Origin: Bilabrum cf. latius
Taxonomy: Eukaryota
NCBI GenBank assembly: GCA_965178125.1
Contig: OZ237752.1
Coordinates: 372,001-436,000 of the forward strand
Direction of reading: 5' to 3'
DNA: 64,000 nt
The notes below the pieces were generated by a model. It saw nothing but the letters and a program-made list of their open reading frames with translations, did no database searches and was not told the DNA's origin. A program made the translations under genes and the position numbers. Shown here piece after piece: positions 2,241 through 25,367 of this stretch (position 1 is its first letter; every line of letters begins with the position of its first letter).

Positions 2241-5200
2241 TCACAAATGTAAAGCGCTCTCCAGCAGTGCCTCCACCTGCGGGCACGGCCGCCCAGCGGA
2301 TCGCAGCTGGGACAGCAGATCGGTCCCAGGTACTGCAGTACCCACCGCGCCCTCGGGGGGATGCATGGCCAGCGAGGCAACCAGGGAGACAGCAGCACAG
2401 GCAGCGCCATGCCCTGCACATCCCATGCGCACCTCCCACGCGTCCACCAGCACCCTCACGCACTCGTCATGGCCCCCGAGCAATGCCGCCACTAGCGGAC
2501 CGCTCAACCAGCCCGAGTGACCAGGCCCCGGGACATCCACCACTGCCACTACCACCGGGCCACGAAGCTCCATCCCACCCGCCAGCTTGCCGAGCCTCAG
2601 CCGCTTGGCCAGCTCCAGCGGCCTGCCCTCCCTGGCAGCTCGGTGCACCATGACAGCGTCTCGTTTGGCCTCCACGGCCCTCCTCCACCGGGCCAAATGC
2701 AGGATCCTCGGGTTAAACTCCCGGATGAGCTTGGCCGTGGCTGTCTTGCCCCTGCGGTCTGCTTCCTCTGCTGGGGTGCGTCCGTCCTGCGGCAGTAAGT
2801 GACAGCACGCAATACGTTCGGAAGTATGTCAGTAAGCTGATAAGTCGAATCAATCGCAAGAAAATATGGCTCACCTTGTTCTTGGCCGTCCTGCTGGCTC
2901 CGGCCCGCAGCAGAGCGAAAGCCGCGGCGTCCCTGCCATAGTATGCGGCTTGATGGAGAGGGGTGCCCTTGTACTGCGGAATCAAGTAGCCACAGATGCG
3001 TATCATCATCTCAGTGTGAATGCCAACCCACATTCATGTTCAAGGTCCGCAGGGGGGGGGAAGGGGGGCGGCGAGGAGCAGCTAGATTGACACGGATCTA
3101 TTGATTTCCCGGTTCCTAGAAAAGCGCTGGCGTGCTCCGACCTGGTCGCGAGCGCAGCCACCCAATAGCATGCACATAGGCAAAGCCAACACACCAACTA
3201 CAATCCCATCAATCAGCAAACCAATAATGGTCATCCACGTGCGAGGAACGGGCCAGATTGGCCTGGCCTACGAACAGGATGCTCAGAGCAAGCAACTGCT
3301 TCGGCTATGGAATGAGTTGATTCACTATCTCGATTTTGCACACAGGCCCGCTGATTCCTATGGTATAAATCTCATCGTCTAGCTCCTCCTACATGCTGAG
3401 CTACCTCAGCTCCCAAGACACAAGCGCTCCTCGACCACCTCACGACCAGCCCGCACCCTTCCCATGCCGAGTCACAGGGAGCACCAACTCCCATGCATCC
3501 AATCATCCAATCTACACATGCATCGCAACAACTCACCGCATCTAAAGCGTTCACATTGGCCCCGGCTGCCACAAGCGCACCCACCACGTCGACATTGGCT
3601 GCCCAGTGCAGCGGGGTGCGCTTGTGCTGTGAGGAAGGAAAGCGAGGGACGGCAAAGTAGGAATGGCAAGCGATGGCAATGGAAGGCAAAAAGATGGGAC
3701 AGCAGCGCGAAGTCAGAACCAGAGCATCGGCGTAGCACAAGACACCCATGGACTGGCCTCTGGCCCCCACAGGTTACGCTGCACCCACTCGCCCCAGCAC
3801 CAAGCCGGCACTGGCACCATTCCCTTATACCCACCACCAGTCTCAAATACGATCGCATGACCAAATCGCCAGACCATGCAGCCATCCATCCGGGCCTGCG
3901 ACAATGCCGCCCGGCGGTCATGGTCGCAAGCTGGGCGAAACGCAGTAGGCTGAAGGCGACAATAGCAAACCTTGGATTGTGTGCATCATGCGCACATCGG
4001 GAGCAGCTCGATGCACGGACTCAGCATCTGATTCGAACCTAGACTACAGATCAGATTTGTTGCCCCCGGTCCCGCGGACCCACTGGGCTTCACCCCGAAC
4101 GACTGGTTCTTCACCGGTCCACCTGAATGCGGTATTCATCTGACACTACGAATGTACACACCACTTTCCCCATGCACCCGACTCGCCTCGTCGCCACATG
4201 GCTTTCTGTTCCTGTTCCCCGCCCTAGGGACCGTGTGCTTTGCTCCCAGCATTACCACCTTGGCCCTATCCTTTCAGCTTGCACGCACCGGTCCTGGCCG
4301 ACCTGCCGTGCGCCCCATCTGTCCACCCACCTGTTGGCCTTCTGCGTGCTGCTGGCCATGCAGTCCGCTGCCACCCGCGTCTCCCTCGTGCCTTGCACCT
4401 GGAGCCCCCATTCCTCCCGTTGTGTTCTCCCTGTTGACACCGCACTGTCGTCGCCTGTGCCGGTGCCCCCCTCTTCTTCTCCACCTCCTGTCCTCCTGCG
4501 CCCACCTCGTCTTCCGTCTCACCTCTGCTCCCCGTTGCTTCAATCCTGATGTCCGAGTACATTAACAGGATCGCCTTCTGGTTCCCCCTGCATCCCGAGC
4601 TACTCCGGCTGCAGATAGCCCATAAAACAAACCAGTCACTACATATACAACACATCCAGCATGTTCACACTCATCTAATCATCCCATCCATACATATATC
4701 GAATCAACTCACCCAGCCCTCAGCATTAACATCGGCCCCCGCCGCCACAAGCGCACCCACCACGTCGGCATGGCCCGTTTCAGCTGCCCAGTGCAGCGGT
4801 GTGCTCTTGTCCTGTGAGGAAGGGAAGCGAGGGACGGCAAGCGTGGATGTGAGGGGATGGCAATGGAAGGCCAAACGGGGGGGGCAGCGAACGGAAGTCA
4901 GAACCAGAGCATCGGCGTAGCACAAGACACCCATGGACGAGCCTCTGGCCCCCACAGGTTACGCTGCACCCACTCGCCCCAGCACCAAGCCGGCACTGGC
5001 ACCATTCCCTTATACCCACCACCAGTCCCAAATATGGTCGCCCGACCAAATCCCTTGACCATCCAGCCATCCATCCGGGCCTGCGACAATGCCGCCCGGC
5101 GGTCATGGTCGCAAGCTGGGCGAAACGCAGTCGGCTGAGGGCTGAAGATTGGGACTGCCGGATTGTGTGCATAATGCACCCAGCAGACGCAGCTTGATGA

Positions 5201-8200
5201 GAGGACTCAGCATCTGATTGAATCGCCTTCTGGTTACGCCTGCATTCCGACCTATCCCGGCTCCAAGACACAAGCCCTCCTTGACCACCTCACGACCAGG
5301 CCGCTCCCTTCCCATGCCGAGCCACAGAAGGAACACCGACTCCCATGCATCCAATCATCCCATCTATTCGACGGCTGCCGGCGCTGTTCATGTTAAATGA
5401 ACGGAGCAGGATTTCAGCCCAAAATTACCCAATCTCCGCCCCTCTCCTGAACACAGAGCGGGTATGCGCGTCATCGCAAGCAATCCGTTGGCTTGGTCGC
5501 ACCTTCCCGGTCGCAACCGCCATCGGAACCCAACGAGAAATTCACGCGCTCCCACTCTGGCATCAACAACGAACCCCATCCGGCGTTAGAATCAATACAT
5601 CACATCAACTCACCTCATCCTAAGCGTTCACATTGGCCCCCGCTGCCACCAGCGCACCCACCACGTCGGCGTTGCCCTCTCTGGCTGCGAAGTGCAGCGG
5701 GGAGTACTGGCCCTGTGAGAAAGGAAAGCGAGGGACGGCGGTGGTAGGGTATGGCAATGGAAGGCAAAAGGGGGGGGCAGCGAACGCAAGTCAGAACCAG
5801 AGCATCGGCGCCGCGCAATCCACCCATGGACGGCCCTCTGGCCCCCACAGGTTCCGCTGCACCCACTCGCCCCAGTATCCATCCCAGTCTCAAATCATAC
5901 GCCAATACATTATCGCCAGACCACCCAGCCATCCAGCCAGGACTGCAGCAAGGCCGCCCGGCGGGCATGGTCGCAAGCTGGGCGAAGCGCAGTCGGCTGA
6001 AGGCGGTAGATCGCAACTGTTGGATTGTGTGTATAATGCGCCCAGCAGACGCAGCTCAACTCGATGATTCAGCATCTGGATGAATCTCCTTCTAGTTCCG
6101 CCTGTATCCCGAGCTATCCCGGCTCGCAAGACACAAGCGCTCCTTGACCACCTCACGACCAGCCCGCACCCTTCCCATGCCGAGTCACAGGGAACACTTA
6201 CTCCCATGCATCCAACCATCCCAGCCACGCATACATCACAGCAACTTACCACATCTAAAGCGTTCACATTGGCCCCGGCTGCCACAAGCGCACCCACCAC
6301 GGCGGCGTGGCCATTCCCGACTGCGCTGTGCAGCGGTGTGAACTTGTACTGTGAGAAAGGAAAGCGAGGGACGCCAAAGGGGGGAATGACAAGCGATGGC
6401 AATGGAAAGGCCCGAGAGGGGGAAAGCAGCGAACGCAAGTCAGAACCAGAGCTTCGGCGCCGCGCAATCCACCCATGGACGGCCCTCTGGTCCCCACACG
6501 TTCCGCTGCACCCACTCGCCCCAGCACCAAGCCAACATTGGCACCAGTCCAGCATATCCATCCCCAGTCTCAAATACGATCGCATGACCAAATCGCCAAA
6601 CCATCCAGCCATCCATCTGGGACTGCGGCAAGGTCGCCCGGCGGTCATGGTCGCTTGCTGGGCGAAGGGCAGTTTGCTAAATGCGATAGATCGCAACTGT
6701 TGGATTGTGTACAACTCGCACCCATCGGACGCAACTCGATGAGATGATTCAAGATCTGGTTGGATCGCCTTCTTCTTCCGCCTGCATCCGGAGCTATCCC
6801 GGCTCCAAGGCATAAGCGCTCCTCGGCCACCTCACAAAAACTCACATAGCCCTCAGCGTTCACATTGGCCCCCGCTGCCACAAGCGCACCCACCACGTCG
6901 GCATGGCCCTTTTCGGCTGCCACGTGCAGCGGTGTGCGCTTGTCCTGTGAGGAAGGGAAGCGAGGCACGGCAAGAAAGGAATGGGAAGGCATGGCAATGG
7001 AAGGCCAAACGGGGGGGCAGCGAACGCAAGTCAGAATCAGAGCCTCAGCGTAGCACAATCCATCCATGGACGAGCCTCTGGCCCCCACAGGTTCCGCTGC
7101 ACCCACTCGCCCCAGCACCCAGCCGGCACTGGCACCATTCGAGCATATCCACCCGCAATACCAACTTCGATCGCACGACCAAATCGCCAGACCACAGATG
7201 CAGCCATCCGGGACTGCAGCAAGGCCGCCCGGCGGGCATGGTCGCAAGCTGGGCGAAGCGCTGTCGGCTGTAGGTGATAGATCGCAACAGTCGGATTGTG
7301 TGCATAATGCGCCCATCAGACGCAGCTTGATGCGAGGACTCGGCATCTGGTTGGATCGCCTTCTGGTTCCCCCTGCATTAAGAGCTATCCCGGCTAAAGA
7401 TACCGCATAACAAAGACCAGTCAATACATATCCAACACATCCAGCATGTTTCCATGCATCCAATCATCCCAGCCATCCATACATCATAGCAACTCACATC
7501 GTCCTCAGCATTCACATCGGCCCCCGCTGCCACAAGTGCACCCACCACGTCGGCATTAGATGCAAAATGAAGCGGTGTGCACTCGTACTGTGAGGAAGGA
7601 AAGCGAGGCACGGCAAAGGGAGGATAGAAAGGGATGGCAATAAGAAGGCCAGAAAGGTAGTTCAGCGAACGGAAGGCAGAATTAGAGCATCGGCGCCGCG
7701 CAATCCACCCATGGACTAGCCTCTCGCCCCCACAGGTTCCGCTGCACCCACTCGCCCCAGCACCAAGCCAGCTCTGGCACCATTCCCGCATATCCACCCC
7801 CGAGTCCCAAATTATATCCCACAACCAAATCACTAGACCATCTGTCCATCCCACCAGAACTGCGGCAAGGCCACCCGCCGGTCATGGCCCCAAGCTGGGC
7901 GAATGCAGTCCGCTGACGGCGACAGATCGCAACTGTTGCATTGTGTGCATTATGCGTCCACCGGACGCAGCTCGATGAGAGGACTCAGGATCTGGTTGAA
8001 TCGCCTTCTGGTTTCCCCCTGCATTAAGAGCTCTCTCGGCTCCCAAAACACAAGCGCTCCTCGACCACCTCACGACTAGGCCGCACCCATCCCATGCCAA
8101 GCCACAGGGAACACCAACTCCCATGCATCCAATCATCCCAGCCATCCATACATACATCACAGCAACTCACTTTACCCTCAGCATTCACATCGGCCCCCGC

Positions 8201-10136
8201 TGTCACAAGCGCACCCACCACGTCGGCATTAGCTGAATAATGAAGCGGTGTGCGCTTGTACTGTGAGGAAGGAAGGCGAGGGACGGTAAAGGGGGGTGCG
8301 AAGGGATGGCAACAAGAAAGCCAGAAAGGAAGGGACAGCAAACGGAAGTCAGAATCAGAGCATCGGCACCGCGCAATCGACCCATGGACGGCCCTCTGGT
8401 CCCCACACGTTCCGCTGCACCCACTCGCCCCAGCACCAAGCCGGCACTGGCACCATTCGAGCATATCCACCCGCAATACCAACTTCGATCGCACGACCAA
8501 ATCGCCAGACCACAGATGCAGCCATCCGGGCCTGCGACAAGGCCGCCCCGCGGTCATGGTTGCAAGCTGGGCGAAGCGCTGTCGGGCTGTAGGTGATAGA
8601 TCGCAACTGTTGCATTGTGTGCATAATGCACCCATCGGGCAAAGCTCGATGTGAGGACTCAGCATCTGGTTGGATCGCCTTCTGGTTCCCCCTGCATTAA
8701 GAGCTATCCCGGCTCAAAGACGCCCACCCTTGCTTGGTGTCCCTGGAGGCAGCCCTGGCCCAATGCACGCTGTCACACCCACTCAAGTCCGATTCGATGC
8801 GGCTGAGTACAGATGTACAGCTAGTTAGAGTGATATACTACTGCTGCACGATATCGATGAGCATATGCTACCTGCTGGCATCCAGCATCGGGGTGTTCGC
8901 ACCCCTGCCAGCCAGCAGTGGCAACCTCATCATGCCCGCGGGCGAAAGGAAGAGCTTGCGTGCTGTCCAAGTGCAATGCAATCAGCTCTAGAGACATTTC
9001 ACCGACCCCGTCTGCTTGTTGTCAACATGGCACAAACCACCCAATGGCCCCATGCTCCACAGCGCAGGAGAGCGAAGTTGTTTTGTCCCAGCCGCGCCGA
9101 TCCTATATCTAATGGAGATGCAAGCAATTCGCGGCCCAGTGAAGAGATCCACTCCAGTCATACACGAACAAAACGACAAACACTCCCCGTCTGCTACCTG
9201 CAGCCAACTGCGCTCTGCCTCTATTGATGCAGAAGATCATTGCAAAGTATCCCACTACGCCGGAAGGAGGATTCCTCGCGCAAAGACACACTCCGCTACA
9301 TGAACCAGCTGAACACCGTCACGAAACGTAAGACAACACAAACTAGGGGCACACCACAAGCAGGTACCATGCATCCAAAACCATGTTGCAACCGATCTAG
9401 TGGCCCATGATGGGCCCTTGAAGAGTGCTTTCACGTCGCCAAGGAGAAGGGCAACGACATTTGGAGCAAGATTCGCATCCGTGATAGACTTGAATCACAT
9501 ATTCTGTGTATGGACTCACGTCATTTTGGGCATCGACTGCTCCCCCAGCCTCCACCAGCGGCACGATGCACGCCTTGTGTCCGTTGTGGCTCGCCCAATG
9601 CAGCGGGGTCCATTCCTTGCTGCCACTAGAGCCCTGCGATCCTAGCAACGGCGCACACTTAATTATCACTACGCCGTAGCTTGTGGTTGGGCCAGTGGAG
9701 GGAAATAGCCACCCACTCCAGATTGGTGGCGAAAAGTGACAAACGGCAATCCATGATTCTGGCTGATACCATCCCTTTCAACACCCACATTTGCCAGATA
9801 ATACCCATTCTGTCTAGAATATCTCCTAACATGCGTGCACACTCACGTCTCCTGTCACGTTCGCGCTCGTCCCAGATGCCAGCGCAGACTGCAGGGCCTC
9901 CAAATGGCCGTTCTTGGCCGCTTCAAGAAGAGCAGCTGACCTGCAGAAGGCGTGAATTGTCATACATACCATTTCGCTTACTTCAATTTGAAGCAAAAAC
10001 TGCAATTATCCTACACATTCGGAACACAGCCATCGAGCAATCCAGACACCAAGTACACACGAATCGAGTCTTAAATACGGGCCCTTACTATCCATCAAGG
10101 AGAAGATATGCATGGAGCATTACATAGTACTTACAT
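2241..10136 (-). CDS. Ankyrin cassette-exon gene, copy 1 (~506 aa if all exons are used): N-cap, 7 one-repeat cassette exons, C-cap and the shared C-terminal module
   Basis: Exons: AT 10136-10135, 9940-9847, 9633-9520; cassettes 8260-8171, 7587-7498, 6944-6846, 6348-6250, 5712-5614, 4811-4713, 3626-3537; then 2973-2875 and 2786-2241 (TGA). All are bounded by cag|...|gt(g/a)ag and carry TPLH..A...G...VVGALVAAGADVNA motifs. One in-frame TAG at 5620. Confidence 0.85.
3390..8720 (-). repeat. Tandem array of ~600-700 bp units, each one ankyrin exon plus a homologous intron (7 units)
   Basis: Recurring intron blocks such as GTCAGAACCAGAGCATCGGC, CCGCTGCACCCACTCGCCCCAGCACC and GGTCATGGTCGCAAGCTGGGCGAA. 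Two units carry unrelated insertions (~4045-4545 and ~5365-5595). Confidence 0.95.
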
Positions 10137-10198
10137 GATCCAAGGATGCAGGCGAATGCGCTGTTGTTGTCGGCTAGTTGGTTGTGGGGAGGATCAGA

Positions 10199-13100
10199 GA
10201 GAGAATAGATATCTGTATCAAAGCACACACTACCCAACTGCAACGACCACCCCGTGGGGCAATCGCATCAGGTAGGTCGAACGGATCAGCAGGCTCACGC
10301 CGCAGGGTTCGCAAGCTGGGCTGCTCCTCCGTGGGGGTTCTGCGTTGCTTGCAATCCTTCGGCGTTCGCATTGCCTTCGTGTTCGATCGCGTCCGGATCA
10401 GCTGCCTGATCTGCTGCCTCACCATCAGCTCCTGCCGCAGGTGCGACGTTCACTGGTGGTATGACAGGCTCTTCAGCTGCCTCCAAACCCATGCCCTACG
10501 CACCGCCAGCCCCACCAGCCTGCTGCAGTGCCGCTCCGAGCTGCGCAGCCTCCGCTGCCACTTGCTCGTCCACTTGACCACCAGCTCCTGCTGCGGCTAC
10601 TCCTTGTACACCAGTTGGTGCCATCTGCTTCAGCTGCTCACAAACGTTAAGGTTGAATTTGTTCGTGAAAGCGGCGTTCCGCATGGCCACCAGTCTGGCA
10701 ATATCCCGGGCCCAGAACCTGACCTGGGCATCCACTGACTTGCTCCCGTTCTTCCCCAGTCGCTTTCGCCTGATGCGTGCTAGCAGCTCAAGCACTCCTC
10801 TTGCTCCATCCCCGATTCGGCCCGAGGGCTGAACCACGAAATCTCGAAAGATCACCGTGTTCGGGTTCTTCAACGTCTTCACCGGGTTCCCCGTGGCTCC
10901 GCTTGGGATGCGACCGGCCAGCCTCCGGTGTGCGGGCATCTCCTGGTGGATCTCCTTGTGTTTCCTGAATGCTCCCCTGATCCCAGCGACTTCGTCCTGG
11001 TAGTCGGTGCCAACCGGTTTTCCTGGACCTGTGCGTTCCCCGATGTGATCTCCCGTCTTTTTCCTCCGGTTGATCGAAGAGAGTGCCGCCTGCGCGAGTG
11101 GATCCACGCAGGTCACATCGATCAGGATGTCTTTCTCCCCTTCCGCCCGGGGGATCACCACATCCATCCTGTACGTGCCGCCCTCCACGTACTGCTCCGT
11201 ATCCTCTGAGAGTGCTTCATACCCCGTAGCACTCTGGCCAATCCTGCACAACTCCCTCTTGACGACCTCATGAATGCTCGTGAGTCGCTTCTTGTCCATC
11301 GGCCGCTTCTTCCGATTTCCACAGCAGCTCATGTGTCCCACCTGGTGAATATATCCGATTCTGTGTTGACACTCGGAGTCGGGGCACACCAGGTTCATCT
11401 CTGCCTGCAGGTTGTGCATCCCATCTTGGTGCTGCAGCCTCCTAAGCACCTCCTGTGCTTGCCTTGCTGATGGTGACGGTGCCATCAGGCGTTTGCAAAA
11501 CTCTTCCTGGTACCCTCTATTGGCTGGAATGGAGACCCCTTCGCCAAACTTGTCCTTCACGTATCGAGCGCGCAGTAGCGCTCCGGCGTCGGCTGATCTA
11601 CGGCTCCTGATCAGCGCTCGTGCTTTCTGCATCTCTACTCGGGCCCTGTCTGCCCATTGTTGGTCTTCTCCTAAGAGGCGTTGTTGGAATCCTGGAATGT
11701 TCTGGAAGGGCTTCACGAGGAAGACCTCAGTACAGGCGCGGTCTGCTGCCTGTCTCATCAAGCTCTCGTGGTGGCCTCCAAAACTCATCGGCTTGTCCCC
11801 TGCAAGTCGCTGCTGCTCCCGAAGGTAGCTCTTCAACCCTTTCGCTTCCAACATGAAGCGTTCTGGGTTTGTGGCGTTCCGTTTCGCCTTGGCCACATTG
11901 TCCATCGGGTCTACGTTGATGAACACACCCTGCTGGGTCTTCACTCGGACTTTCTCAATCTTGTCCGGAGTGATGAGCTCGTGCTCTGCACACTTCACCG
12001 CCTTCTCGAGTGCTGTCCTCATCTCTGGGTCGGTGAGCATCGCTTGGGTTCTAATTGGGTCCCACACTGAACGCGTGAAACCCGGCATGTCCCCGTGGGG
12101 CACCGGTTGGTACTACAACTGGTACTTGAGGCGTTGTTTGGGGTCCTCCTTGGCCGATCGAACCAGCCCCTTCATCTTGTACAAAACCCAACGCACAGCC
12201 CAGTCCGCAACCTGGAGCACGGGCGCACTGTGAAGTCCGAACGTGTCGTGTTGGTTGTTGACTGGACCTGCGGTCGTCTCCTCAACCTGGTTCAGTTGGC
12301 TCATGAAGTCCAGGTTGTACTCTTTCGCCAGACCCGCTAAGCCTGGCAGCACGTCCAGGATCATTCCTGCGAATCGTGCTACTAGGGGTAGACGCTCTGG
12401 GATCAGTGCGAGCCCTACTCCTCCCTGAGCTAGAGGAGCTTTCCTCTAATGACGGATGAGCTCAGCTCGTAGGAGCTGGTCATGCGCTCGGTAGAGGCGA
12501 GTGTCGAACCCTGCGATGAGGTCTGCGAAGGCCTCTTCGAGGCGTTCCACTCTCTGCAACGTCCCTGCATTCTCCAGGCCAATGAGGATACCGCTCCTGC
12601 AGAAATGCTGCCACTTGGGTTGGATGCACGTTCGAAAAACGTATACTGCCAGAGATGGCTTCATGAGGCCGCATAGAACGACACCATTTGCAACGTCTTC
12701 CAGCCGTTTCTTGAGGTGCGTCTCAACATACTCCCTGGTGCGCGACACTGGGATGCCAGCCACGACGATTCCAGCTTCATTCAGCTTGCCTTGGAGCCCC
12801 CCTTCATCAATCTCAGCACGAATAGCAATTCGTGTAGATTCTGATGGCGAGTAGAACTCCGTCTTGGCAGGCTGCAGCGTGAGGTTATCCTTCTCCACCT
12901 CCGCCTTCAAGGTAGTCATGCAGGCTGCTACCTTTTCCTGTGTTCCGAGCAGGAATGCATCATCCGCGATCGCAAGGATGATTACGTCGGGATGTGCGGC
13001 TCGTGTTGCTTTGAGGGCCCTGTCAAAACCCAGACAGAACAACGGTGAGCTCATGGGCGATCCTTGGACCACCCCTTGCCGATTTTTCAGGATGTCAACC

Positions 13101-14046
13101 TCTCCATCCGATCCTACAATCACCGAGTAGCCTGGTGATCGAAACTCCGCTGCAACGAAGGGGAGGGCTTCTGACTTGTCCTCCCTTAGCACTTTCATGA
13201 TGGACTCCCTCTCCACCGTGCCGTAGGCGTTCTTCATGTCCACGTGGGCTGCTGTTCTCTCCGGGAAGGTCGACAGGTAAGTGCGGACCAGGAAAGATAT
13301 GGCGTCTGCTCCACATGGCAGGCCACCTCCAAACTGCTCTGGCTTGCACCTATTCCCAACTGACGGCTTGAGCCCTTCGCCGAGGTGCTTGAGGAGTGGG
13401 AGCAGGAGGTTGGAGCCCATGCCTAAAGGTCTGGGTTCCGGCTTCCCCGGCTTCGCAATCCCTATGCCTCGACCGAGAGTCAGAAGCGTCCGTGCAAGTG
13501 GTGGGACCCAGCCGGACCCGAGGGCGGTGTACAGCTGCTAGACAAGGTCTGCCTGTCCCCTGGTGATCTTGTCAGCAACCTCTCTCGACATCCCTAGACT
13601 GTCGACTGCCCTGTTTCTCTTGAACTCCTGCAGGTGCGAAATTGACTTCCCTTTGCTGTCTGACACCAGCATTCTGCTTCGCGCAGTATACCGGCAGCGT
13701 GCGTGCTGGAGCTCGACTTCAGCAGTGCAGTCGCGTCCCGTAGGATATACGGGCACAGCCACGAGGTGAACGTTCGTTTAAGCTGCTTGCGGTTCTTGGT
13801 GTTGAAGATCATCTGGAAGACGGACTGGTCTCGTGCGCCATGTTGGCACCTGTAGACTGCGGCCATGTTCGCCATAGGTCCCTGGGCACTAGGTTCGTGC
13901 TTGACCATGTACCACGCGGTTAGCTGCATGTGGGCAGGCGTGTCTCCGCTCAGCAGCACCAGTGAGCAGCCGTACGCCTGTGAGACAGCTCTGGCCATCG
14001 CGTCGGCCGGCCAGACCAGCGCCCTGACCGTGTCCTTCGGCATGTT
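10199..14046 (-). mobile_element. Non-LTR retrotransposon with RT, CCHC-like Zn knuckle and restriction-like endonuclease (CRE-clade-like), 5'-truncated or rearranged
   Basis: One reading frame from ~13770 to TGA at 10295 when 4 TAGs (13538, 12446, 12113, 10496) are read through. Motifs: KPGKPEPRPLGMG, VDMKNAYGTVER, GVVQGSPMS, IADD, PLAQGGVGL, CPDSEC..H..CC, RMDVV...IDVTCVDP. The 3' UTR ends in ATTCTCTCTCT. Confidence 0.9.
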
Positions 14047-14579
14047 ACCCTGGGAGCTCTCTGATCTGCCTGTGGAGCTCCTTCTCTCCCAGCGACTGGC
14101 CCTTGCGCGGCATGTTACCGCACAGGAGCCCCACCGCGCACATGCCCAGCGAGTACAGGTCCGCTCGCTCGTCGTACACCTCCCCCCTCACGACCTCGGG
14201 GGCGATGTAGTTGCCCTTCCCCGCCCAGCCCCGGATGCCATCCGCACCCATAGGCAGCGGGCCACCATCGGGCGCACTCGTCACACCCCTGGGAGGCTGC
14301 AACCACCTGTCCACGGCCTGCCCCGGGTCGATGATGACCCCCTCGCCGTCGTCTGCCAGCACCGAGTTCTCGAGAGACACGTCACGGTGCAGCACGCCCC
14401 TCGTGTGGTGGTGGTGCAGCCCCTTCGCCAGGCCATAGAAAGCCTTGCGAGCGGCTGCCGGGTCCATCCCAGCCGCAGCAATATCCAGCAGGTCCCGTGA
14501 AGCGTAGAAAGGGGTCACGATGCAATAATAGCGTTCGTCACTCGCAGTTGCGACAACGTGGCATACGTTTGGGTGCGGC
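14047..14579 (-). pseudogene. Second truncated copy of the kinase, joined to the retroelement
   Basis: Matches 26206-26738. It breaks after RELPG, at a CATG microhomology with the retroelement-side sequence. Confidence 0.85.
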
Positions 14580-14711
14580 CACCAGCACCTCCCGCCGCAC
14601 CTGACGGTCCCACAGGCTGGCCTCTCGCCCTTTACCACCCGCCGATCACCCCACCGAAAGTCAGACTCAGCTGCGGCTCTCCCCGACACCCCCCCTGCAC
14701 TCGCCGCACGA

Positions 14712-17700
14712 TCACAAATGTAAAGCGCTCTCCAGCAGTGCCTCCACCTGCGGGCACGGCCGCCCAGCGGATCGCAGCTGGGACAGCAGATCGGCCCCAG
14801 GTACTGCAGTACCCACCGCGCCCTCGGGGGGATGCATGGCCAGCGAGGCAACCAGGGAGACAGCTGCACAGGCAGTGCCATGCCCTGCACATCCCATGCG
14901 CACCTCCCACGCCTCCACCAGCACCCTCACGCACTCCTCATGGCCCTCGAGCAATGCCGCCACTAGCGGACCGCTCAACCAGCCCGAGTGACCAGGCCCC
15001 GGGACATCCACCACTGCCACTGCCACAGGGCCACGAACCTCCATCCCACCCGCCAGCTTGCCGAGCCTCAGCCGCTTGGCCAGCTCCAGCGGCCTGCCCT
15101 CCCTGGCAGCTCGGTGCACCATGGCAGCATCTCGTTTGGCCTCCACGGCCCTCCTCCACCGGGCCAAATGCAGGATCCTCGGGGTAATAAACTCCCGGAT
15201 GAGCTTGGCCGTGGCTGTCTTGCCCTCTCGGTCTGCTTCCTCTGCTGGGGTGCGTCCGTCCTGCGGCAATAAGTGCCAGCACGCAATACGTTTGGAGGTA
15301 TGCCAGTAAGCTGACAAGTCGAATTCATCACAAGCAAACCCATCTCACCTTGTTCTTGGCCGTCCTGCTGGCTCCGGCCCGCAGCAGAGCGAGAGCCGCG
15401 GCGTCCCTGCCAAAGTAGGCGGCTTGATGGAGAGGGGTGTCGTTGTACTGCGGAATCAAGTAGCCAAAGATGCGTATCATCATCTCAGGGCGAATGCCAA
15501 CCCACACTCATGTTCAAGGTCCGCAGGGGGGGCGGCGAGGAGCACTGCTGGTAGCCTGGATCTATCGATTTCCCGGTTTCTAGAAATTCGCTGGCGTGCT
15601 GAGACCTGCTCGCGAGCGCAGCCACCCAATAGCATACACATAGAACTCACCAACTACAATCAAATCAAACAGCAAACCAATAATGGTCAGACACGTGCGA
15701 GGAACGGGCCAGATTGGCCTGGCCTACGAACAGGATGCTCGGAGCAAGCAACTGCTTCGGCTATGGACTCAGTTGATTCACTATCTCGATTTCGCACACA
15801 GACCCGCCGACTAAAATGGTATGAATCCCACTATCTAGCTCCATCTACATGCTGAACTACCTCAGCTCCCAAGACACAAGCGCTCCTCGGCCACCGCACG
15901 ACCAGGCCGCACCCTTCCCATGCCAGGTCACAGGAAACACAAACCAGCTAGCACACGTCCGACACCACCAGCATGCGTCCATGAAAACTATCATCCCATC
16001 CATGCATACATCACCAAAACTCACATTGTCCTCAGCATTCACATCGGCCCCCGCTGCCACAAGCGCACCCACCACGTTGGCGTGGCCCTCTCTGGCTGCA
16101 AAGTGCAGCGGGGAGTACTGGCCCTAAACGGAAAGAAAGCGAGGGACAGCAAGAAGGAATGGGAAGGGATGGCGATGGAAGGCCAAAAGAAGGAAAGCAG
16201 CGAACGGAAGTCAGAACCAGAGCATCGGCACCGCGCAATCCACCCATGGACGACCCTCTGGCCCCCACAGCTTCCCGCTGCACCCACTTGCCCCAGTACC
16301 AAGCCAACACTGGCGCCATTCCAGCACATCCACCCCCAGTCGCAAATATAATCCAGCCATCCATCTGGAACTGCAGCAAGGCCGCCCGGCGGTCATGGTC
16401 CCAAACTGGGCGAAGCGCAGTCGGCTGAAGGCGATAGATCGCGACTGTTGGATTGTGTGCAACTCGCGCCCATCGGACGCAGCTCGATGAGATTATTCAA
16501 GATCTGGTTGGATCGCCTTCTTCTTCCGCCTGCATCCCGAGCTATCCCGGCTCCAAGGCACAAGCGCCCATCGGCTACCTCACAAACACTCACATAGCCC
16601 TCAGCATTCACATCGGCCCCCGCTGCCACAAGCGCACACACCACGGGCGCATTGCTATTCTAGGCGGCTTCAAGAAGCGGGGTGATCTTGTTCTGTGAGG
16701 AAGCAAAGCGAGGGATAGCAAGAAAGGAATGGAAGGAGATGGCAATAGAAAGGCAAAAAGGGAAACAGCGAACGGAAGTCAGAACCAGAGCATCTGCGCC
16801 GCGCAATCCACCCATGGACGGGCCTCTGCCCCCCACAGCTTCCCGCTGCACCCACTCGCCACAACATCAAACCCACATTGGCACCAGTCCAGCATATCCA
16901 CCCCAGTCCCAAATACAAAGACACAATCGCATCCGCGACTAGACCATCCATACAGCCATCCAGGACTGCGGCAAGGCCGCCCGGCGGTCATACTCGCAAG
17001 CTGGGCAAACTGCAGTCGGCTGAAGGCTGAAGATTGCAACTATTGCATTGTGTACAACTCGCACCCATCGGACGCAGCTCGATGAGATAATTCAACATCT
17101 GGCTGCATCACCTTCTGGTTCCCCCTGCATCCCGAGCTATACCGGCTCCCAAGACATAAGCGCTCCTCAACCACCTCACGACCAGGCCGCACCCTTCCCA
17201 TGCCGAGTCACAGAAGAAACACCAACTCCCGTGCATCCAATCATCCCATCCCATCCACATATCACGAAAACTCACCTCATCCTCAGCGTTCACATTGGCC
17301 CCCGCTGCCACAAGCGCAGCCACCACGTCGGCGTTGCCCCATCTGGCTGCCCAGTGCAGCGGGGTGCGCTAAGCCTGTGAGGAAGGAAAGCGAGGGACGG
17401 CAAGGGGGGATAAAGAGGCATGGCAATGGAAAGGCAAAAAGGGGGGGACAGCGAACGGAAGTCAGAACTACAGGATCGGCGTTGCGCAATCCACCCATGG
17501 ACGGGCCTCTGGCCCCCACAGAATCCGCTGCACACACTCGCCACAGCATCAAGCCGGCACTGGCACCATCCGAGCATATCAACCCCCAGTCCCAAATACA
17601 AATACACAATCGCATCCGCGACTAGACCATCCATCCAGCCAGCCAGCCATTCAGGACTGCGGCAAGGCCGCCCGGCGGTCATGGTCGCAAGCTGGGCGAA

Positions 17701-20700
17701 GCGCAGTCGGCTGAGGGCGGTAGATCGCAACTGTTGGATTGTGTGCATAATGAACACATCAGGCGAAGCTCGATGAGATGATGCAAGGTCTAGTTAGAAA
17801 GCATTCCGGTTCCGCCTGCATCCCGAGCTATCCCGGCTCCAAGGCAGAAGCGCTCCTCGGCCACCTCACAAACACTCACATAGCCCTCAGCATTCACATC
17901 GGCCCCCGCTGTCACAAGCGCACCCACCACGGCGGCTTGGCTCTTCCCGGCTGCAACGTGCAGCGGGGTGTCCTTGCTCTGTGAGGAAGGAAAGCGAGGG
18001 ACAGCAAAGGGGGATCGGAAAGGCATGACAATGGGAGGCAACAAGGGGGGGACAACGAAAGGAAGTCAGAACCAGGAACCAGAGCATCGGCACCGCGCAA
18101 TCCACCCATGGACGGGCCTCTGGCCCCCACAGGTCCCGCTGCACCTACTCGCCCCAGCACCAACCTGACACGGGCACCATTCCCGCATATCCATTGCCAG
18201 TCCAAACATAAACACGCAATCATATCGGCGACCAGACCATCCAGCCATCCATCTGGAACTGCAGCAAGGCCGCCCGGCGGTCATGGTCGCAAGCTGGGCG
18301 AAGCGCAGTCGGCTGAAGGAGACTGATCGCGACTGTTGGATTGTATACAACTCGCACCCATCGGACGCAGCTCGATGCGAGGACTCAGGATCTGGTTGGA
18401 TCGCCTTCTGGTTCCGCCAAGACACAAGCGCTCGTCGACCACCTCATGACAACCAGGCCGCACCCTTCCCATGCCGAGTCACAGGGAAAACTTACTTCCA
18501 TGCATTCAATCATCCAAACTACATATACATCACATCAGCTCACATTGTCCTCAGCATTCACATCGGCCCCCGCTGCCACAAGAGCACCCACCACGTCGGC
18601 GTGGCCCTCTCCGGCTGCAAAGTGCAGCGGGGTGCCCTAAGCCTGTGCAGAATGGAAGGATGGCAGCAAGGGAAGCAGCGAACTCAAGTCAGAACCAGAG
18701 CATCGGCGCCGCGCTATCCACCCATGGACAGGCCTCTGCCCCCCACAGGTTACGCTGCACCCACTCGCCACAACATCAAACCCACATTGGCACCAGTCCA
18801 GCATATCCATCCCCAGTCCCAACTACACAATCATATCGGCGACCAGACCATCCAGCCAGCCAGCCATTCAGGACTGCGGCAAGGCCGCCCGGCGGTCATG
18901 GTCGCAAGCTGGGCGAAGCGCAGTCGGCTGAAGGAGACTGATCGCGACTGTTGGATTGTATACAACTCGCAACCAGCAGACGCAGCTCGATGAGATGATT
19001 TAGCATCTGGTTGAACCGCCTTCTTCTTCCGCCAAGACACAAGCGCGCCTCGACCACCTCACGACCAGGCCGCAACCTTCCCATGCCGAGTCACAGGGAA
19101 CACTTACTCCCATGCATCCAATCATCCCAGCCATGAATACATCACTACAACTCACCCCGTCCACAGCATTCACATTGGCCCCCGCTGCCACAAGCGCACA
19201 CACCACGTCGGCATTGGCTGCCTTGTATAGCGGCGTGCACTTAAACTGTTAGGAAGGAAAGCTAGGGACAGCAAGAAGGGAATGGAAAGGGATGGTAATG
19301 GAAGGCAACAAGGGAAGCAGCGAACGGAAGTCAGAACCAGAGCATCGGCACCGCGCAATCCACCCTTGGACAAACCTCTGGCCCCCACAGAATCCGCTGC
19401 ACCCACTCGCCCCAGCACCAAGCCGGCACAGGCACCATTCGAGCATATCCACCCCCAGTCCCAAATACAAATATACAATCGCATCCGAGGCTAGACCATC
19501 CATCCAGCCAGCCATCCGGGACTGAGGCAAGGCCGCCCGGCGGCCATGCTCGCAAGCTGGGCGAAGCGCAGTCGGCTGAGGGCGGTAGATCGCGACTGTT
19601 GGATTGTGTACAACTCGCAACCAGCAGACGCAGCTCGATGAAATGATTCAACATCTGGTTGAACCGCCTTCTGGTTCCGCCTGCATCCCGAGCTATCCCG
19701 GTACAAGATATCCTATAACACAAACCAATCAATACAGAACCAACACATCCAGCATGCTTCCAATCATCCAACCACCCCATCCATCCATACATCACAGCAA
19801 CTCACCCAGGCCTCAGCATTCACATCGGCTCCCGCTGCCACCAGCGCACCCACCAATGCGGCGTGGCCCTTTCCGGCTGCAAAGTGCAGCGGGGTGCGCT
19901 GGTCCTGTGAGGAAGGAAAGCGAGGGACGGCAAGGGGGGATCGGAAAGGCATGACAATGGAAAGGCAAAAAGAAGGGAAGCAGCGAACGAAAGTCAGAAC
20001 CAGAGCATCGGCACCGCGCAACCCAACCATGGACGGGCCTCTGGCCCCACAGGTTCCGCTGCACCCACTCCCCCAAGCACCAAGCCGGCACTGGCACCAT
20101 TCCAGCATATCCACCCCCAGTCCCAAACATAATCACGCAATCATATCGGCGATTAGACCATGCAGCCATCCATTCGGGACTGCCTCACTGCGGCAAGGCC
20201 GCCCGGCGGTCATGGTCGCTTGCTGGGCGAACCGCAGTCGGCTGAAGGAGATTGATAGCAATTGTTGGATTGTGTGCGACTTGCAGCCAGCAGACGCAGC
20301 TCGATGAAATGATTCAGCATCTGGTTACATAGCCTTCTTCTTCCGCCTGCATCCCGAGGTATACCGGCTCCCAAGACACAAGCGCTTACCAGCCACCTCA
20401 CGACCAGGCCGCACCCTTCCCATGCCGAGTCACAGAAGAAACACCGACTCCCATGCATCCAATCATCCCATCCCATCCATATATCACGAAAACTCACATA
20501 GTCCTCAGCATTCACATCGGTCCCCGCTGCCACAAGCGCACCCACCACGTCGGCGTTGCCCTTCTCGGCTGCAAAGTGCAGCGGGGTGCCCTAAGCCTGT
20601 GAGGAAGGACAGCTAGGGATAGCAAAGGGATGGCAATGGAAAGGCATGGCAATGGAAGGCCAACAAGGCGAAGCAGCGAAGGCGAGTGGGAACCAGAGCA

Positions 20701-23700
20701 TCGGCGCCGCGCAATCCACCCATAGACGGGCCTCTGGCCCCCACAGCTTCCCGCTGCACCCACTCGCCACAACATCAAACCCACATTGGCACCATTCCAG
20801 CATATCCACCCCCAGTCCCAAACACGATCGCACGACCAAATTGCCAAATCGCCAAACCATCCATACATCCAGCCATCCAGGACACTGCGACAAGGCCGCC
20901 CGGCGGTCGTGGTGGCAAGCTGGGCGAAGCGCAGTCGGCTGAAGGCGATAGATTGCAACTGTTGGATTGTGTGCATAAGGTGCCGTCATCGGACGCAGCT
21001 CGATGAGATGATTCAAGATCTGGTTGGATCGCCTTCTTCTTCCGCCTGCATCCGGAGCTATCCCGGTGAGAAAAACTGGCGAGCGCTGCCCCTCAGCATC
21101 CGAATAGCACGTGGCTTGATTGCCGCTCAAGTCTAATTGTGACCTCTCAACTTCCACATCCGCATGTGGTCGGGTGATCCGATCCCTTTGATCCTAGTCA
21201 CTCGTCACACACATGCACAACCCCCCACCTTCCCGGCCTGTGCCTCCCCCTTACCACCCGCCGTATCAACCCGATGATCCCACCAATCATCTCCTCTTCC
21301 ACTACTCCCTCACCCCCCCTCCCCCCTTCGGTGAACCGTCGCCCCCTCTCCCTCTGCTCCGTCCTCACCTCACCTCACCCGCGCCAACCTCCCTCTCTTC
21401 GCCCACCCCTCGTTGCCGCCGCTCCTGCACCTCCTCCCTAGCCGCTCTCTCTCACTCCTCCGGCTTTGACTCAGACATATTATATTCTCTCACTCCTCCG
21501 GCGTGAGCTTGCTGATCCGTTCGACCTGCCCAGTGCGATTGCCTCTGGGGATGGTCGTTGTAGTTGGGTAGTGTGTGCTTTGACTCAGACATATTATATT
21601 CTCACTCCTCCGCATCGCTACGTCGCATCTGAGCCTGCACCTCGAGCGGGTCCTGCGCCCACCGCGCGACCTCAACCTTAGAGACCTTATTGGCCTCACC
21701 AACAATCCTATAACACAAACCAATCAATACAGAACCAACACATGCAGCATGTTTCCAATCATCCAGCCATCCCATCCATCCATACATCACTACAACTCAC
21801 CCAGGCCTCAGCATTCACATCGGCTCCCGCTGCCACAAGCGCACCCACCACGTTGGCGTGGCCCTCTCTGGCTGCAAAGTGCAGCGGGGTGCGCTGGTCC
21901 TGTGAGGAAGGAAAGCCAGAAACGGCAAGGGGGGATCGGAAAGGCATGGCAATGGAAAGGCAAAAAGAAGGGAAGCAGCGAACGAAAGTCAGAACCAGAG
22001 CATCGGCACCGCGCAACCCAACTATGGACGGGCCTCTGGCCCCACAGAATCCGCTGCACCCACTCCCCCCAGCACCAAGCTAGCACTGGCACCATTCCAG
22101 CATATCCACCCCCAGTCCCAAATACAAATATACAATCGCATCCGAGGCTAGACCATCCATACATCCAGCCATTTAGGACTGAGGCAAGGCCGCCCGGCGG
22201 TCATGGTCGCTTGCTGGGCGAACCACAGTCGGCTGAAGGAAATAGATCGTAACTGTCGGATTTTGTGCATAAAGTGCCCTCATCGGACGCAGCTCGATGG
22301 GATACTTCAAGATCTGGTTGGATCACCTTCTTCTTCCGCCTGCATCCCGAGCTATCCCGGTACAAGGTATCCTATAACGCAAATCATTCAATACAGATCC
22401 AACACATCCAGCATGCTTCCAATCATCCAACCACCCCATCCATACATCACAGCAACTCACATAGCACTTTGCGTTCACATCGACTCCCGCTGCCACAAGC
22501 GCACCCACCACGTTGGCGTGGCCCTTGTAGGCTGCTTCATGAAGCGGTGTGCACTGGCCCTGTGAGGAAGGAAAGCCAGAAACGGCAAGGGGGGTGGGAA
22601 GGCATGGAAATGGGAGGGCAACAAGGGGGGGACAGCGAACGGAAGTCAGAACTACAGGATCGGCGTTGCGCAATCCACCCATGGACGGGCCTCTGCCCCC
22701 CACAGGTTCCGCTGCACCCACTCGCCCCAGCACCAAACCAGCACTGGTACCATTCGAGCATATCAACCCCCAGTCCCAAATACAAAGACACAATCGCATC
22801 CGCGACTAGACCATCCATCCAGCCAGCCAGCCAGCCATTCAGGACTGCGGCAAGGCCGCCCGGCAGTCATGGTCGCAAGCTGGGCGAAGCGCAGTCGGCT
22901 GAACTGTGGGATTGTGTGCATCATGTGCCCATCGGGCGAGACTCAACGCGAGGATTCAGCATCTGGTTGGATCGCCTTCTGGCTCCGCCCGCATCCCGAC
23001 CTATCCCGGCTCCTAGACGCCCTCCCTTTCTTGGTGCTCCCGGAAGCAGCCCCGGCCCAATGCACGCTGCCACACCCACTCAAGTCCGGTTTGATGCGGC
23101 TGAGTACAGATGTACAGCTAGTTAGAGGGATGTACTACTGCTGCACGATATCGATGAGCATATGCTACCCGCTGCCATCCCTGCCAGCCAGCCGTGGCAG
23201 GCTCATCATGCCGGCGGGCGAAAGGAAGAGCTTGCTTGCTGTCCAAGTGCAATGCAATCAGCTCCAGAGACATTTCACCGGCCCCGTCTGCTTGTTGTTG
23301 TCAGTATGGCACAACCCAATGGCCCAATGCTCCACACCGCGGCGATCGAATGTCAAATGGAGATGAAAGCACTTCGCAGCACAGCGAAGAGATCCACTCC
23401 AGTCATACACGAACATAACGTCAAACACTCCCCGTCTGCTACCTGCAACCAATTGCGCTCTGCCTCTATGCTAAGGCCGAGGCACGAGCGCGAGCAGCAG
23501 CCGCATCTTCAGCACCCGAGGAGCGCCGGCCACTTGCTGGACCGGGACCTGGCCGCATCGCGGGCAGCCTTGCACCTACCGCCGGTCTCGGGCCAAGACT
23601 AGCAGCAGGCACAACAGATGGGCTGGCCTGAGGCGCTGGGGACGCCGCGGCGGCCGCCTGAGCCCCGCCAGAAGATACAGAATTGGACCGGCTCTTTGAT

Positions 23701-25367
23701 GCCGCCCGACGTTCAGCACGCTCAGTACGCTGCTATGATGCCTTACTTGAATCCATAGTAGAGCAAGAGGTTAAGAAGCGAAAACTGGCGAACGCTGCCC
23801 CTCAGCGCCCGAATAGCACGCGGCTTGATTGCCGCTCGAGTCTAATTGTGACCTCTCAACTTCCACATCCGCATGTGGTCGGTGATCCGATCCCCCTGAT
23901 CCGAGTCACTCGTCACACATGCCCAACCCACACCTGCCCGGCCTGTGCCTCCCCCTTCCTATCCGCCTCATCAACCCAATGACCCCACCGATCATCTTCT
24001 CTTCCACCATTTCCTCCCCCGTTCCGGTGAACCGTCGTCCCCCCCTCCCTTTGCTCTACCCTCCCCCCCCTAGCTGCCCCCTCTCTCTCTCTCTCTCTCT
24101 CTAGGAGCTGAGGGTGCAGCACCGGACGAGGCGGCTGATCCGAACGCAATCGAACACGAAGGCATCGCGAACGCAGATGGACCGCAAGCAGCGCAACTCC
24201 CCCACGGAGGAGCGGCCCAGCTTGCGGAGCCCATGGCGTGAGCTTGCTGATCCGTTCGACCTGCCCAGTGCGATTGCCTCTTGGGGTGGTCGTTGTAGTT
24301 GGGTAGTGTGTGCTTTGACTCAGACATATTATATTCTCTCTCTCTCTCGCACTCCTCCGCATCGCTACGTCGCATCTGAGCCTGCTCCTCGAGCGGGTCC
24401 TGCGCCCACCGAGCGACCTCAATCTCAGAGACCTTGCTGGCCTCACCAACGAAGATCATTGCCAAGTATCCCACGACGCCGGAAGGAGGATTCCTCGCGC
24501 AAAGACACACTCCGCTACATGAACCAGCTTAATACACACACGAAACGTAAGACAACACAAACTAGGGGCACACCACAAGCAGGTACCATGCATCCAAAAC
24601 CATGTTACAACCGATCTAGTGGCCCGTGATGGGCCCTAAGAGAGTGCTTTCACGTCGCCAAGAAGAAGGGCAACGACATTTGGAGCCCGATCGCATCCGT
24701 GATAGACATGAATCACATATTCTGTGCAGGGACTCACTTTATTTTGGGCATCGACTGCTCCCCCAGCCTCCACCAGCGGCACGATGCACGAGTTGTGTCC
24801 GTTGTGGCTTGCCCAATGCAGCGGGGTCCAATCCTTGCAGCCACTAGGGCCCTGCGATCCTAGCAACGGCGCACACTCAAATATCACTTTAGAACATGAA
24901 TGCCGTGGCTTGTGGTTAGGCCAGTGGAGGGAAATAGCTACGCACTCCAGATTGGTGGCGAAAAGTGACCAACAGCAATCCATGATTCTGGCCGATACTC
25001 TCCCTCTCAACACCCCAGTTTGCCAGTCAAAATACCCATTCTGTCTAGAATATATCATAACATGCGTGCACACTCACGTCTCCTGTCACGTTCGCGCTCG
25101 TCCCAGATGCCAGCGCCGACTGCAGGGCCTCCAAATGGCCGTTCTTGGCCGCTTCAAGAAGAGCAGCTGACCTGCAGATGGTGTAAATTGACATACATAC
25201 CATTTCGCTTACTTCGATGTGAAGCAAAAATTGAGATTATCCTACACATTCGGAACACACCCATCGAGCAATCCAGACACCAAGTACACACGAATCGAGT
25301 CTTAAATGCGGGCCCTTACTATCCATAAAGGAGAAAATATGCATGGGACATTACATAGTACTTACAT
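14712..25367 (-). CDS. Ankyrin cassette-exon gene, copy 2 (~612 aa): 10 one-repeat cassette exons and the shared C-terminal module
   Basis: Exons: AT 25367-25366, 25171-25078, 24851-24738; cassettes 22559-22461, 21899-21801, 20596-20498, 19904-19806, 19245-19156, 18642-18544, 17978-17880, 17374-17276, 16692-16594, 16123-16025; then 15447-15349 and 15260-14712 (TGA). In-frame TAGs at 20591, 18637, 17369 and 16660. Confidence 0.85.
15830..23020 (-). repeat. Tandem array of ankyrin exon plus intron units (10 units)
   Basis: Same unit structure and intron motifs as 3390-8720. Confidence 0.95.
21068..21703. mobile_element. Non-coding dispersed element (AAAACTGGCGA...TGGCCTCACCAAC) with retrotransposon 3'-end fragments inside
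   Basis: Same ends as 23781-24450 and 39543-40794. Absent from the paralogous intron site at ~19700 (CCCGGT-acaagat-ATCCTATAAC). Confidence 0.75.
23470..24450. mobile_element. Composite ~1-kb intronic insertion: a dispersed repeat, the non-coding element and a retrotransposon 3' end
   Basis: Absent from the equivalent position of copy 1 (~9225). 24103-24350 is homologous to the reverse complement of 10199-10440. Confidence 0.75.

What the first reader, a model, noticed from the sequence alone, without database searches (positions are those of the whole stretch)
3537..22559. Cassette variation is focused on the ankyrin binding surface, and cassettes are mosaics of each other
Seen in the 17 cassettes: the scaffold VVGALVAAGA(D/N)VNA is nearly invariant. 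Variation falls at residues 1-3 (HKR, DKS, GQY, YKF, YEC, AQG, FKC, SKD, NKI), the residue after TPLH (W/F/S/V/Y/E/K), the two after AA (ET, RE, GN, EK, YK, GK, GE, RW, QN) and the last three (EGW, QDE, LDV, EGY, KCY, EAW). Known: these are the beta-turn and helix-1 positions that form the ankyrin binding groove and largely match those randomised in DARPins. GQYSPLHFAAREG occurs in both genes at different ranks (5614, 16025). Cassette 21801 combines DQR...EAW from 19806 with REGHAN from 16025, which suggests gene conversion.
Basis: partly seen in the sequence, partly recalled or inferred. Interest (0 to 1): 0.75.

Follow-up and report, generated by a model that had tools for sequence, protein, structure and literature searches.

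The report
Fast-evolving ankyrin exon cassettes in protist
A protist carries five expressed genes built from stacks of look-alike exons, each coding one ankyrin repeat; the exons swap pieces and are strongly selected to differ on their binding face, like natural antibody mimics, probably to recognise changing intruders.

Summary
Confirmed and extended. The 17 cassettes are phase-0, one-repeat ankyrin exons of two tandem genes. The genome holds five such genes with 45 intact cassettes, in an organism that reads TAG as Gln. Amino-acid-changing divergence at the six DARPin-randomised positions (0.45-0.50) is 2-3 times intron and scaffold-synonymous divergence, also in 28 held-out cassettes. Site models give omega about 6 at seven positions, five of them DARPin positions. 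The signal (LRT 197) far exceeds neutral-plus-recombination simulations (maximum 40.5 in 23). Mosaicism is supported by PHI, by triplet tests and by a 9-nt deletion found in 10 of 45 cassettes regardless of intron ancestry. RNA contigs show the genes are spliced; no junction requires exon skipping. Each protein ends in a helix-plus-ankyrin-pair module shared with at least 150 other loci, and no NB-ARC, NACHT or Roc domain was seen in these genes. It works like brown-algal ROCO/NB-ARC-TPR exon arrays and fungal conserved-ANK NLRs but belongs to neither. The non-self-sensor function is inferred, not shown.

The parts
25366..25367 (-). Gene A: inferred end of first exon (AT of an ATG split by an intron)
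   Evidence: AT|GTAAG found upstream of the N-cap exon in 4 of 5 genes; not confirmed by RNA
25078..25171 (-). Gene A: N-cap ankyrin exon
   Evidence: joint 24850-25077 in run X1
24738..24851 (-). Gene A: constant ankyrin exon N2 (38 aa)
22461..22559 (-). Cassette A1
   Evidence: N2-A1 joint
21801..21899 (-). Cassette A2 (A4-like ends, A10-like middle)
20498..20596 (-). Cassette A3 (TAG at codon 2)
19806..19904 (-). Cassette A4
19156..19245 (-). Cassette A5, 90-nt deletion form
   Evidence: spliced in X1
18544..18642 (-). Cassette A6
17880..17978 (-). Cassette A7
17276..17374 (-). Cassette A8
   Evidence: A8-A9 joint is unique
16594..16692 (-). Cassette A9
16025..16123 (-). Cassette A10
15349..15447 (-). 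Gene A: last constant ankyrin exon
   Evidence: joints
14712..15260 (-). Gene A: last exon with C-cap, about 40-residue helix, conserved ankyrin-pair module and tail; stop TGA
9847..9940 (-). Gene B: N-cap exon
   Evidence: 99% identical to A
9520..9633 (-). Gene B: N2 exon
8171..8260 (-). Cassette B1, 90-nt form
   Evidence: B1-B2 junction letters in X1
7498..7587 (-). Cassette B2, 90-nt form
6846..6944 (-). Cassette B3 (strongest triplet mosaic, corrected p 3e-5)
6250..6348 (-). Cassette B4
5614..5712 (-). Cassette B5
4713..4811 (-). Cassette B6
3537..3626 (-). Cassette B7, 90-nt form
2875..2973 (-). Gene B: last constant ankyrin exon
2244..2788 (-). Gene B: last exon with helix and ankyrin-pair module

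Best explanation
Five genes (A, B, C in tandem on contig C18; D on C26; E on C40) encode about 500-740-aa proteins, probably cytosolic: N-cap, one constant repeat, 6-14 one-exon ankyrin cassettes, a last constant repeat, C-cap, a long helix and a conserved ankyrin-pair module. SHOWN: the repeated unit is exon plus about 570 nt of intron; units exchange short tracts; all 45 exons keep frame and splice sites; seven binding-face codons evolve under strong diversifying selection while the scaffold is under purifying selection; the genes are transcribed and spliced. INFERRED: arrays grow and shrink by unequal crossing-over and are patched by gene conversion in the genome, with no special recombinase. 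Because the intron sits at the tip of the beta-hairpin, each binding loop is made by two neighbouring exons, so every exchange makes a new surface. Cassettes are mostly included one after another. INFERRED (about 50%): the varied face recognises fast-changing foreign proteins (virus, symbiont, prey bacterium), and the shared C-terminal module passes the catch to a common partner.
For: pN at the six DARPin positions (fixed in advance from memory, later checked in PMC8248824): 0.497 in the 17 window cassettes and 0.454 in 28 held-out cassettes, against intron p 0.175/0.248 and scaffold pS 0.209/0.229; scaffold pN 0.08; intron-column permutation P<1e-5. M2a/M8: omega 6.0-6.7 on 19-21% of sites (1, 3, 8, 11, 12, 14, 33; site 14 drops out on the intron tree), LRT 184-254 on three trees. 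Neutral data with recombination: LRT at most 40.5 in 23 fits against 197 observed; top-six-codon diversity at most 0.498 in 240 against 0.586. PHI P=0.0002 on upstream intron alone in the window set, gene A and gene C. 33 of 4080 triplets significant after Bonferroni, 16 of 4080 without the variable codons. The 9-nt deletion in 10 of 45 cassettes needs 10 changes on the intron tree, p-AU 7e-7, and all 10 share one AAT codon. 45 of 45 exons lack TAA/TGA and keep AG..GT. Nine GT-AG joints of gene A in run X1 (3 also in X2), none in X3/X5, plus junction letters that fit genes B, C, D and E. Module: 150 scored matches of 415 candidates, behind ANK and LRR-like domains.
Against: No ligand, partner or phenotype. 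PHI on the upstream intron of all 45 is not significant (P=0.062). The pairwise tract test finds only 2 of 136 pairs in the window, 1 of 136 without variable codons. 13 of 23 neutral simulations passed the nominal 5% LRT, so nominal P values mean little. Synonymous divergence inside the variable codons is also raised (0.36-0.39), though it rests on few sites. The site models are my own code with NEB and scaled M0 branch lengths, not PAML. Only 2 of 7 cassette junctions seen are unique; 5 also fit a skipping event, and four adjacent junctions of gene A are not among the rows shown.
Confidence: 0.65

Rival explanations
1. Relaxed constraint: surface positions of ankyrin repeats simply tolerate change, and conversion inflates the site-model test.
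For: These positions vary in designed and natural ankyrins; recombination gave nominal false positives in 13 of 23 simulations.
Against: Relaxed sites cannot exceed neutral divergence, yet pN is 2-3 times the intron and scaffold-synonymous values, also in held-out genes. The observed LRT is about five times the simulated maximum.
Confidence: 0.06
2. Combinatorial alternative splicing (as reported for brown-algal ROCO and NB-ARC-TPR, or Dscam-like) is the main diversifier.
For: Symmetric phase-0 exons allow any skip; two joints look like skips (18641-21800, 16122-17879); 5 of 7 junctions are ambiguous; contigs drop rare forms.
Against: Both apparent skips are identical over 29+29 nt to the adjacent junctions A2-A3 and A9-A10. 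Cassette-to-cassette joints exclude one-of-many choice. Joint depths are similar (29-91). The intron consensus shows no unusual structure (z +0.7).
Confidence: 0.2
3. Programmed or somatic DNA rearrangement or targeted mutagenesis (VLR-like or DGR-like) diversifies the arrays within a clone.
For: Very high diversity at few codons; an RT-bearing element lies between genes A and B.
Against: All four bases occur at the first or second position of the variable codons, and third positions vary too; no invariant template copy. The RT belongs to a 1160-aa non-LTR-like ORF. No inverted or broken donor cassettes in the regions read. No other letters were listed at cassette exons, and no cassette-skipping joint in DNA runs X3/X5 (weak, since contigs hide rare variants).
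Confidence: 0.05
4. The evolutionary mechanism is as described, but the proteins are not defensive sensors: they are substrate receptors or adaptors (for example for ubiquitin ligases) or self/non-self or mating recognition factors.
For: A constant terminal module behind varied ANK and LRR domains is the layout of F-box/SOCS-box receptors (recalled, not tested); the module family is huge.
Against: The module folds as an ankyrin pair on a long helix, with no better match among 48,161 chains; omega about 6 implies an antagonist or balancing partner. Not exclusive with defence.
Confidence: 0.25

Closest known systems
Brown-algal ROCO (LRR) and NB-ARC-TPR exon-shuffled candidate receptors (PMC3341825, passages; PMC11378527, abstract and sections 11 and 15)
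   Same: One repeat per exon, shuffling within and between recent paralogues, a few positively selected sites on the concave face, candidate immune role.
   Different: Ankyrin rather than LRR/TPR; phase 0; no Roc-COR or NB-ARC; no inverted or inactivated repeat exons (45 of 45 intact); splice variants reported there, none required here; a lineage-specific C-terminal module.
Fungal NLRs with highly conserved ANK repeats, e.g. Podospora Pa_3_8560 (PMC4986451, passages and section 17; PMC13449251, passages)
   Same: Ankyrin repeats under concerted evolution, with positive selection on the inner helix and beta-hairpin; repeat numbers vary.
   Different: No NACHT/NB-ARC or effector domain; here each repeat is its own exon with about 570 nt of co-duplicated intron; a recurrent 3-residue-shorter repeat type.
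Tuber melanosporum NACHT-ANK (nank) genes (seen only as cited in PMC4986451 and PMC13449251)
   Same: Expanded ankyrin family with an exon-based diversification route.
   Different: There codon-sized microexons are alternatively spliced; here whole-repeat exons are diversified in the genome.
DARPins (PMC8248824, passages; PDB hits)
   Same: Caps plus 33-aa consensus repeats; selected exon positions 33, 1, 3, 11, 12 equal DARPin 2, 3, 5, 13, 14.
   Different: Natural; DARPin 33 not in the selected class; DARPin 10 (a framework residue that contacts the target in that paper) and 16 are; 6-14 variable repeats instead of 2-3.

Membership tests
Ankyrin repeat proteins | Pfam Ank match, TPLH..AA..G motif | tested here: met
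   Cassette A4: PF00023 33.2 bits, cut-off 21.1; 384 PDB sequences matched by B3
Brown-algal exon-shuffled ROCO / NB-ARC-TPR | One repeat per exon | tested here: met
   45 of 45 cassettes; RNA joints
Brown-algal exon-shuffled ROCO / NB-ARC-TPR | Diversifying selection on the binding face | tested here: met
Brown-algal exon-shuffled ROCO / NB-ARC-TPR | Roc-COR or NB-ARC domain in the same gene | tested here: not met
   Exon chain of gene A from N-cap to stop holds only ankyrin exons and a tail with no Pfam family; NB-ARC 0 matches of 5 candidates in G000. The 5' end above the N-cap is inferred.
Brown-algal exon-shuffled ROCO / NB-ARC-TPR | Inactivated or inverted repeat exons in introns | tested here: not met
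   No cassette on the opposite strand and none broken in the 174 kb read around the five genes
Brown-algal exon-shuffled ROCO / NB-ARC-TPR | Alternative splicing of repeat exons | tested here: inconclusive
   All joints fit adjacent exons; 5 of 7 also fit skips; contigs only
Fungal conserved-ANK NLRs | NACHT or NB-ARC domain | tested here: not met
   3 NACHT matches of 28 candidates in G000, on C41, C19 and C5, none at these genes
Fungal conserved-ANK NLRs | Repeat exchange (concerted evolution) | tested here: met
   nearest intron within gene 0.10, in another gene 0.16 (medians)
Fungal conserved-ANK NLRs | Repeat-number polymorphism among isolates | not testable with these tools
   One assembly; counts differ among paralogues (10, 7, 14, 8, 6)
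Fungal conserved-ANK NLRs | Over 85% internal identity by T-REKS | not tested
   Overall pN is 0.19, so probably below that bar
Dscam-type mutually exclusive exons | Only one exon of the cluster per mRNA | tested here: not met
   Cassette-to-cassette joints, A8-A9 unique; defining feature recalled
Diversity-generating retroelement | Invariant template and adenine-specific changes | tested here: not met
   No template copy; changes from all bases; defining feature recalled

The most novel reading that the evidence does not exclude
This lineage has replaced NLRs with its own receptor superfamily: several hundred ANK and LRR-like binders that all end in one helix-plus-ankyrin-pair adaptor feeding one pathway. 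The five cassette genes are its antibody-like branch, in which whole-repeat exons, hairpin-splitting introns and a mobile 3-residue deletion regenerate binding surfaces quickly enough to differ between clones.
Probability: 0.2. Interest if true: 0.85.

Novelty: new variant of a known kind. Interest (0 to 1): 0.6.

Why it matters
It is a clean natural counterpart of DARPin libraries: selection picked five of the six positions that engineers randomise, plus two framework positions and a shortened-repeat variant worth testing in design. It extends exon-per-repeat receptor diversification from brown algae to ankyrin repeats in another protist, without an NTPase switch. It points to an unnamed C-terminal module on at least 150 loci as a handle on how protists recognise non-self, which makes that question testable.

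Tried and rejected
ANK-kinase fusion: rejected. The ANK ORF stops at 14712; the kinase pieces after genes A, B and C are partial copies of the gene at 25.6-26.8 kb, in different frames, and absent behind D and E. Cassette intron as a transposon: 49 matches (40 of 44 candidates scored), all at the five loci. TAG as a stop or shifted acceptor: the joint at 18642 uses the upstream CAG, which keeps the TAG in frame. The GENECONV-like part counted gaps as matches and was discarded and redone. D and E counts there (12 of 28, 7 of 15) are inflated by D4 and E5, whose upstream introns are not homologous; both were left out. Exon/intron tree conflict (2 of 42 shared splits, AU tests) was not calibrated by simulation and is given little weight. 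The single-sequence fold of a database relative failed (pLDDT 45). Foldseek gave no match at E<=0.001 for the module; the ESM Atlas gave only generic ankyrin clusters. The sister family on C14 (35 exons) gave LRT 27, omega 2.7, inside the neutral-recombination range: inconclusive. No run was on record as RNA; X1 and X2 were judged spliced from their joints. The spliced proteins were not folded, so the effect of the 3-residue deletion is open. The lineage was not settled: the only organism name among 120 nad7 hits is Cafileria marina at 71%, not the top hit. Literature: searches found no paper on ankyrin exon cassettes in a protist, and search 26 none on this code in a stramenopile; most subscription papers are not covered and no supplements were read.
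Full report
Observation. Five of them hold an in-frame TAG. TAG is read as an amino acid, most likely Gln. It stands for Q in the Rab motif DTAGQERF at 29.1 kb and 20 times in a 4145-aa ORF, the genome has a nuclear tRNA with anticodon CTA, and a spliced junction uses the acceptor that keeps the TAG. TAA and TGA never occur in the cassettes.

Anatomy. The window is C18:372001-436000 of a 48.6-Mb assembly. The constant 5' exons occur at five places only. Reading those loci gave five genes with 10 (A), 7 (B), 14 (C), 8 (D) and 6 (E) cassettes, 45 in all. Each gene runs N-cap exon, a constant repeat, the cassettes, a last constant repeat, and a final exon; lengths are about 500-740 aa if the inferred split ATG is right. 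The repeated unit is exon plus about 570 nt of intron (mean diversity 0.195 over 34 of 40 introns), and that intron is confined to these loci. The kinase pieces between A, B and C are duplication debris, not part of the ORF. The final exon folds as C-cap, a helix of about 40 residues, then an ankyrin pair (pLDDT 80; best structural matches are ankyrins, Z 7-9). That module has 150 scored matches among 415 candidates in the genome. It follows ANK or LRR-like domains and has relatives among unnamed proteins in public collections. A sister cluster on C14 has many small genes with about four ankyrin exons plus the module, variable at the same positions.

Selection. Exon positions 33, 1, 3, 11, 12 and 31 correspond to DARPin positions 2, 3, 5, 13, 14 and 33, the randomised set (PMC8248824, passages; register). 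The neutral yardsticks are 0.175 and 0.248 (introns) and 0.209 and 0.229 (scaffold synonymous); scaffold pN is 0.08. Drawing intron columns at random never reached the observed value in 100,000 draws. My own codon models (62 sense codons) gave omega 6.0-6.7 on about a fifth of sites, with LRT 184, 224 and 254 on exon, unit and intron trees. Sites 1, 3, 8, 11, 12 and 33 were picked on all three trees and site 14 on two. Recombination inflates such tests: 13 of 23 neutral simulations passed the nominal threshold. But their largest LRT was 40.5 against 197 for the data in the same pipeline, and a tree-free statistic reached at most 0.498 in 240 simulations against 0.586. Third-position diversity is higher beside the selected sites (0.29) than in helix 2 (0.13), as expected if conversion homogenises the scaffold while selection keeps old variants.

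Mosaicism. PHI on the upstream intron alone gives P=0.0002 for the window set, gene A and gene C, but 0.062 for all 45. In the window, 33 of 4080 triplets are significant after Bonferroni (7 cassettes), and 16 of 4080 without the variable codons; a pairwise tract test is weaker, 2 of 136 pairs. The B5/A10 triplet is not significant. Two independent markers agree. C6 and C8 have identical exons behind introns that differ at 51 of 214 sites. The same 9-nt deletion, which removes DARPin positions 13-15, sits in 10 of 45 cassettes in four genes, always with the same AAT codon, and needs 10 changes on the intron tree of 43 cassettes (p-AU 7e-7). Nearest introns are closer within genes (median 0.10) than between (0.16), so the arrays were largely rebuilt inside each gene.

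Expression. Contigs of four runs were laid on gene A. Runs X1 and X2 show GT-AG joints that X3 and X5 lack: nine in X1, from N-cap to the last exon, cassette joints at depth 29-91. Two look like skips, but they are identical over 29+29 nt to the adjacent junctions A2-A3 and A9-A10. Other rows match B1-B2, C11-C12, D N2-D1 and E N2-E1. So all five genes appear transcribed, the short cassettes are spliced in, and nothing requires skipping. Skipping is not excluded: 5 of 7 cassette junctions are ambiguous, 7 joints were not shown, and contigs lose rare forms.

Mechanism. Most likely the arrays diversify in the genome, by tandem duplication and unequal exchange through the long similar introns and by short conversion tracts. 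Purifying selection keeps frame and scaffold, and strong diversifying selection acts on the groove. The intron lies at the hairpin tip, so each loop is shared by two exons. The target is unknown. A changing antagonist is the simplest reason for omega near 6 (inference), and the shared module suggests one downstream partner (inference).

Comparison. [quoted passage not shown] Fungal NLRs have conserved ANK repeats selected on the inner helix and hairpin (PMC4986451, passages and section 17; PMC13449251, passages). The present genes work like both but fail membership: no Roc, NB-ARC or NACHT domain and no inverted or dead exons. Searches found no description of this combination. The scan's earlier notes hold nothing on this genome or sequence and one giant-virus ankyrin gene array of a different build (not checked).

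Verdict. Interest 0.6; the shared module and its large family are the most open part.

Noticed in passing
window 29089-29712, 42016-54453; G000:C23:907607-907679 (L021): Nuclear code reads TAG as an amino acid, probably Gln, while TAA and TGA appear to remain stops. A tRNA with anticodon CTA exists; by eye its acceptor stem resembles this genome's tRNA-Tyr more than its tRNA-Gln. In module alignments two TAGs fall in Trp columns.
   Followed up: partly
window 14880-15200, 30532-30897, 38416-38787; many contigs: Unnamed C-terminal helix-plus-ankyrin-pair module on at least 150 loci, behind ANK and LRR-like domains; one database relative carries it with a Ras-like domain. The genome has 0 NB-ARC and 3 NACHT matches.
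   Followed up: partly
G000:C14:250000-1036000 (L012-L015, L064-L083): Cluster of dozens of small four-repeat ANK-plus-module genes; the last ankyrin exon varies at the same positions 1, 3, 8, 11, 12, 14, 33 (36 exons); selection test inconclusive.
   Followed up: partly
window 42016-54453 (+): 4145-aa single ORF with two blocks of six near-identical 69-aa FG-GAP-like repeats whose variation is confined to two short loops; may be a second diversified binder.
   Followed up: no
window 10295-13777 (-): 1160-aa ORF with an RT domain (non-LTR-like) between genes A and B, interrupting a kinase copy; related fragments near 24.1 kb and 40.1-40.4 kb, and by eye in the A2-A3 intron.
   Followed up: partly
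window 636-790 and 1515-1670: Direct repeats of about 155 bp flank an element next to the break in the kinase copy after gene B.
   Followed up: no
G000:C111 (38,401 bp): Mitochondrial contig with TGA read as Trp; nad7 has four close unnamed relatives (88-99%) and then a gap to 73%.
   Followed up: partly
G000:C26:747144-747411: A stray piece of the cassette intron lies upstream of gene D's N-cap exon.
   Followed up: no
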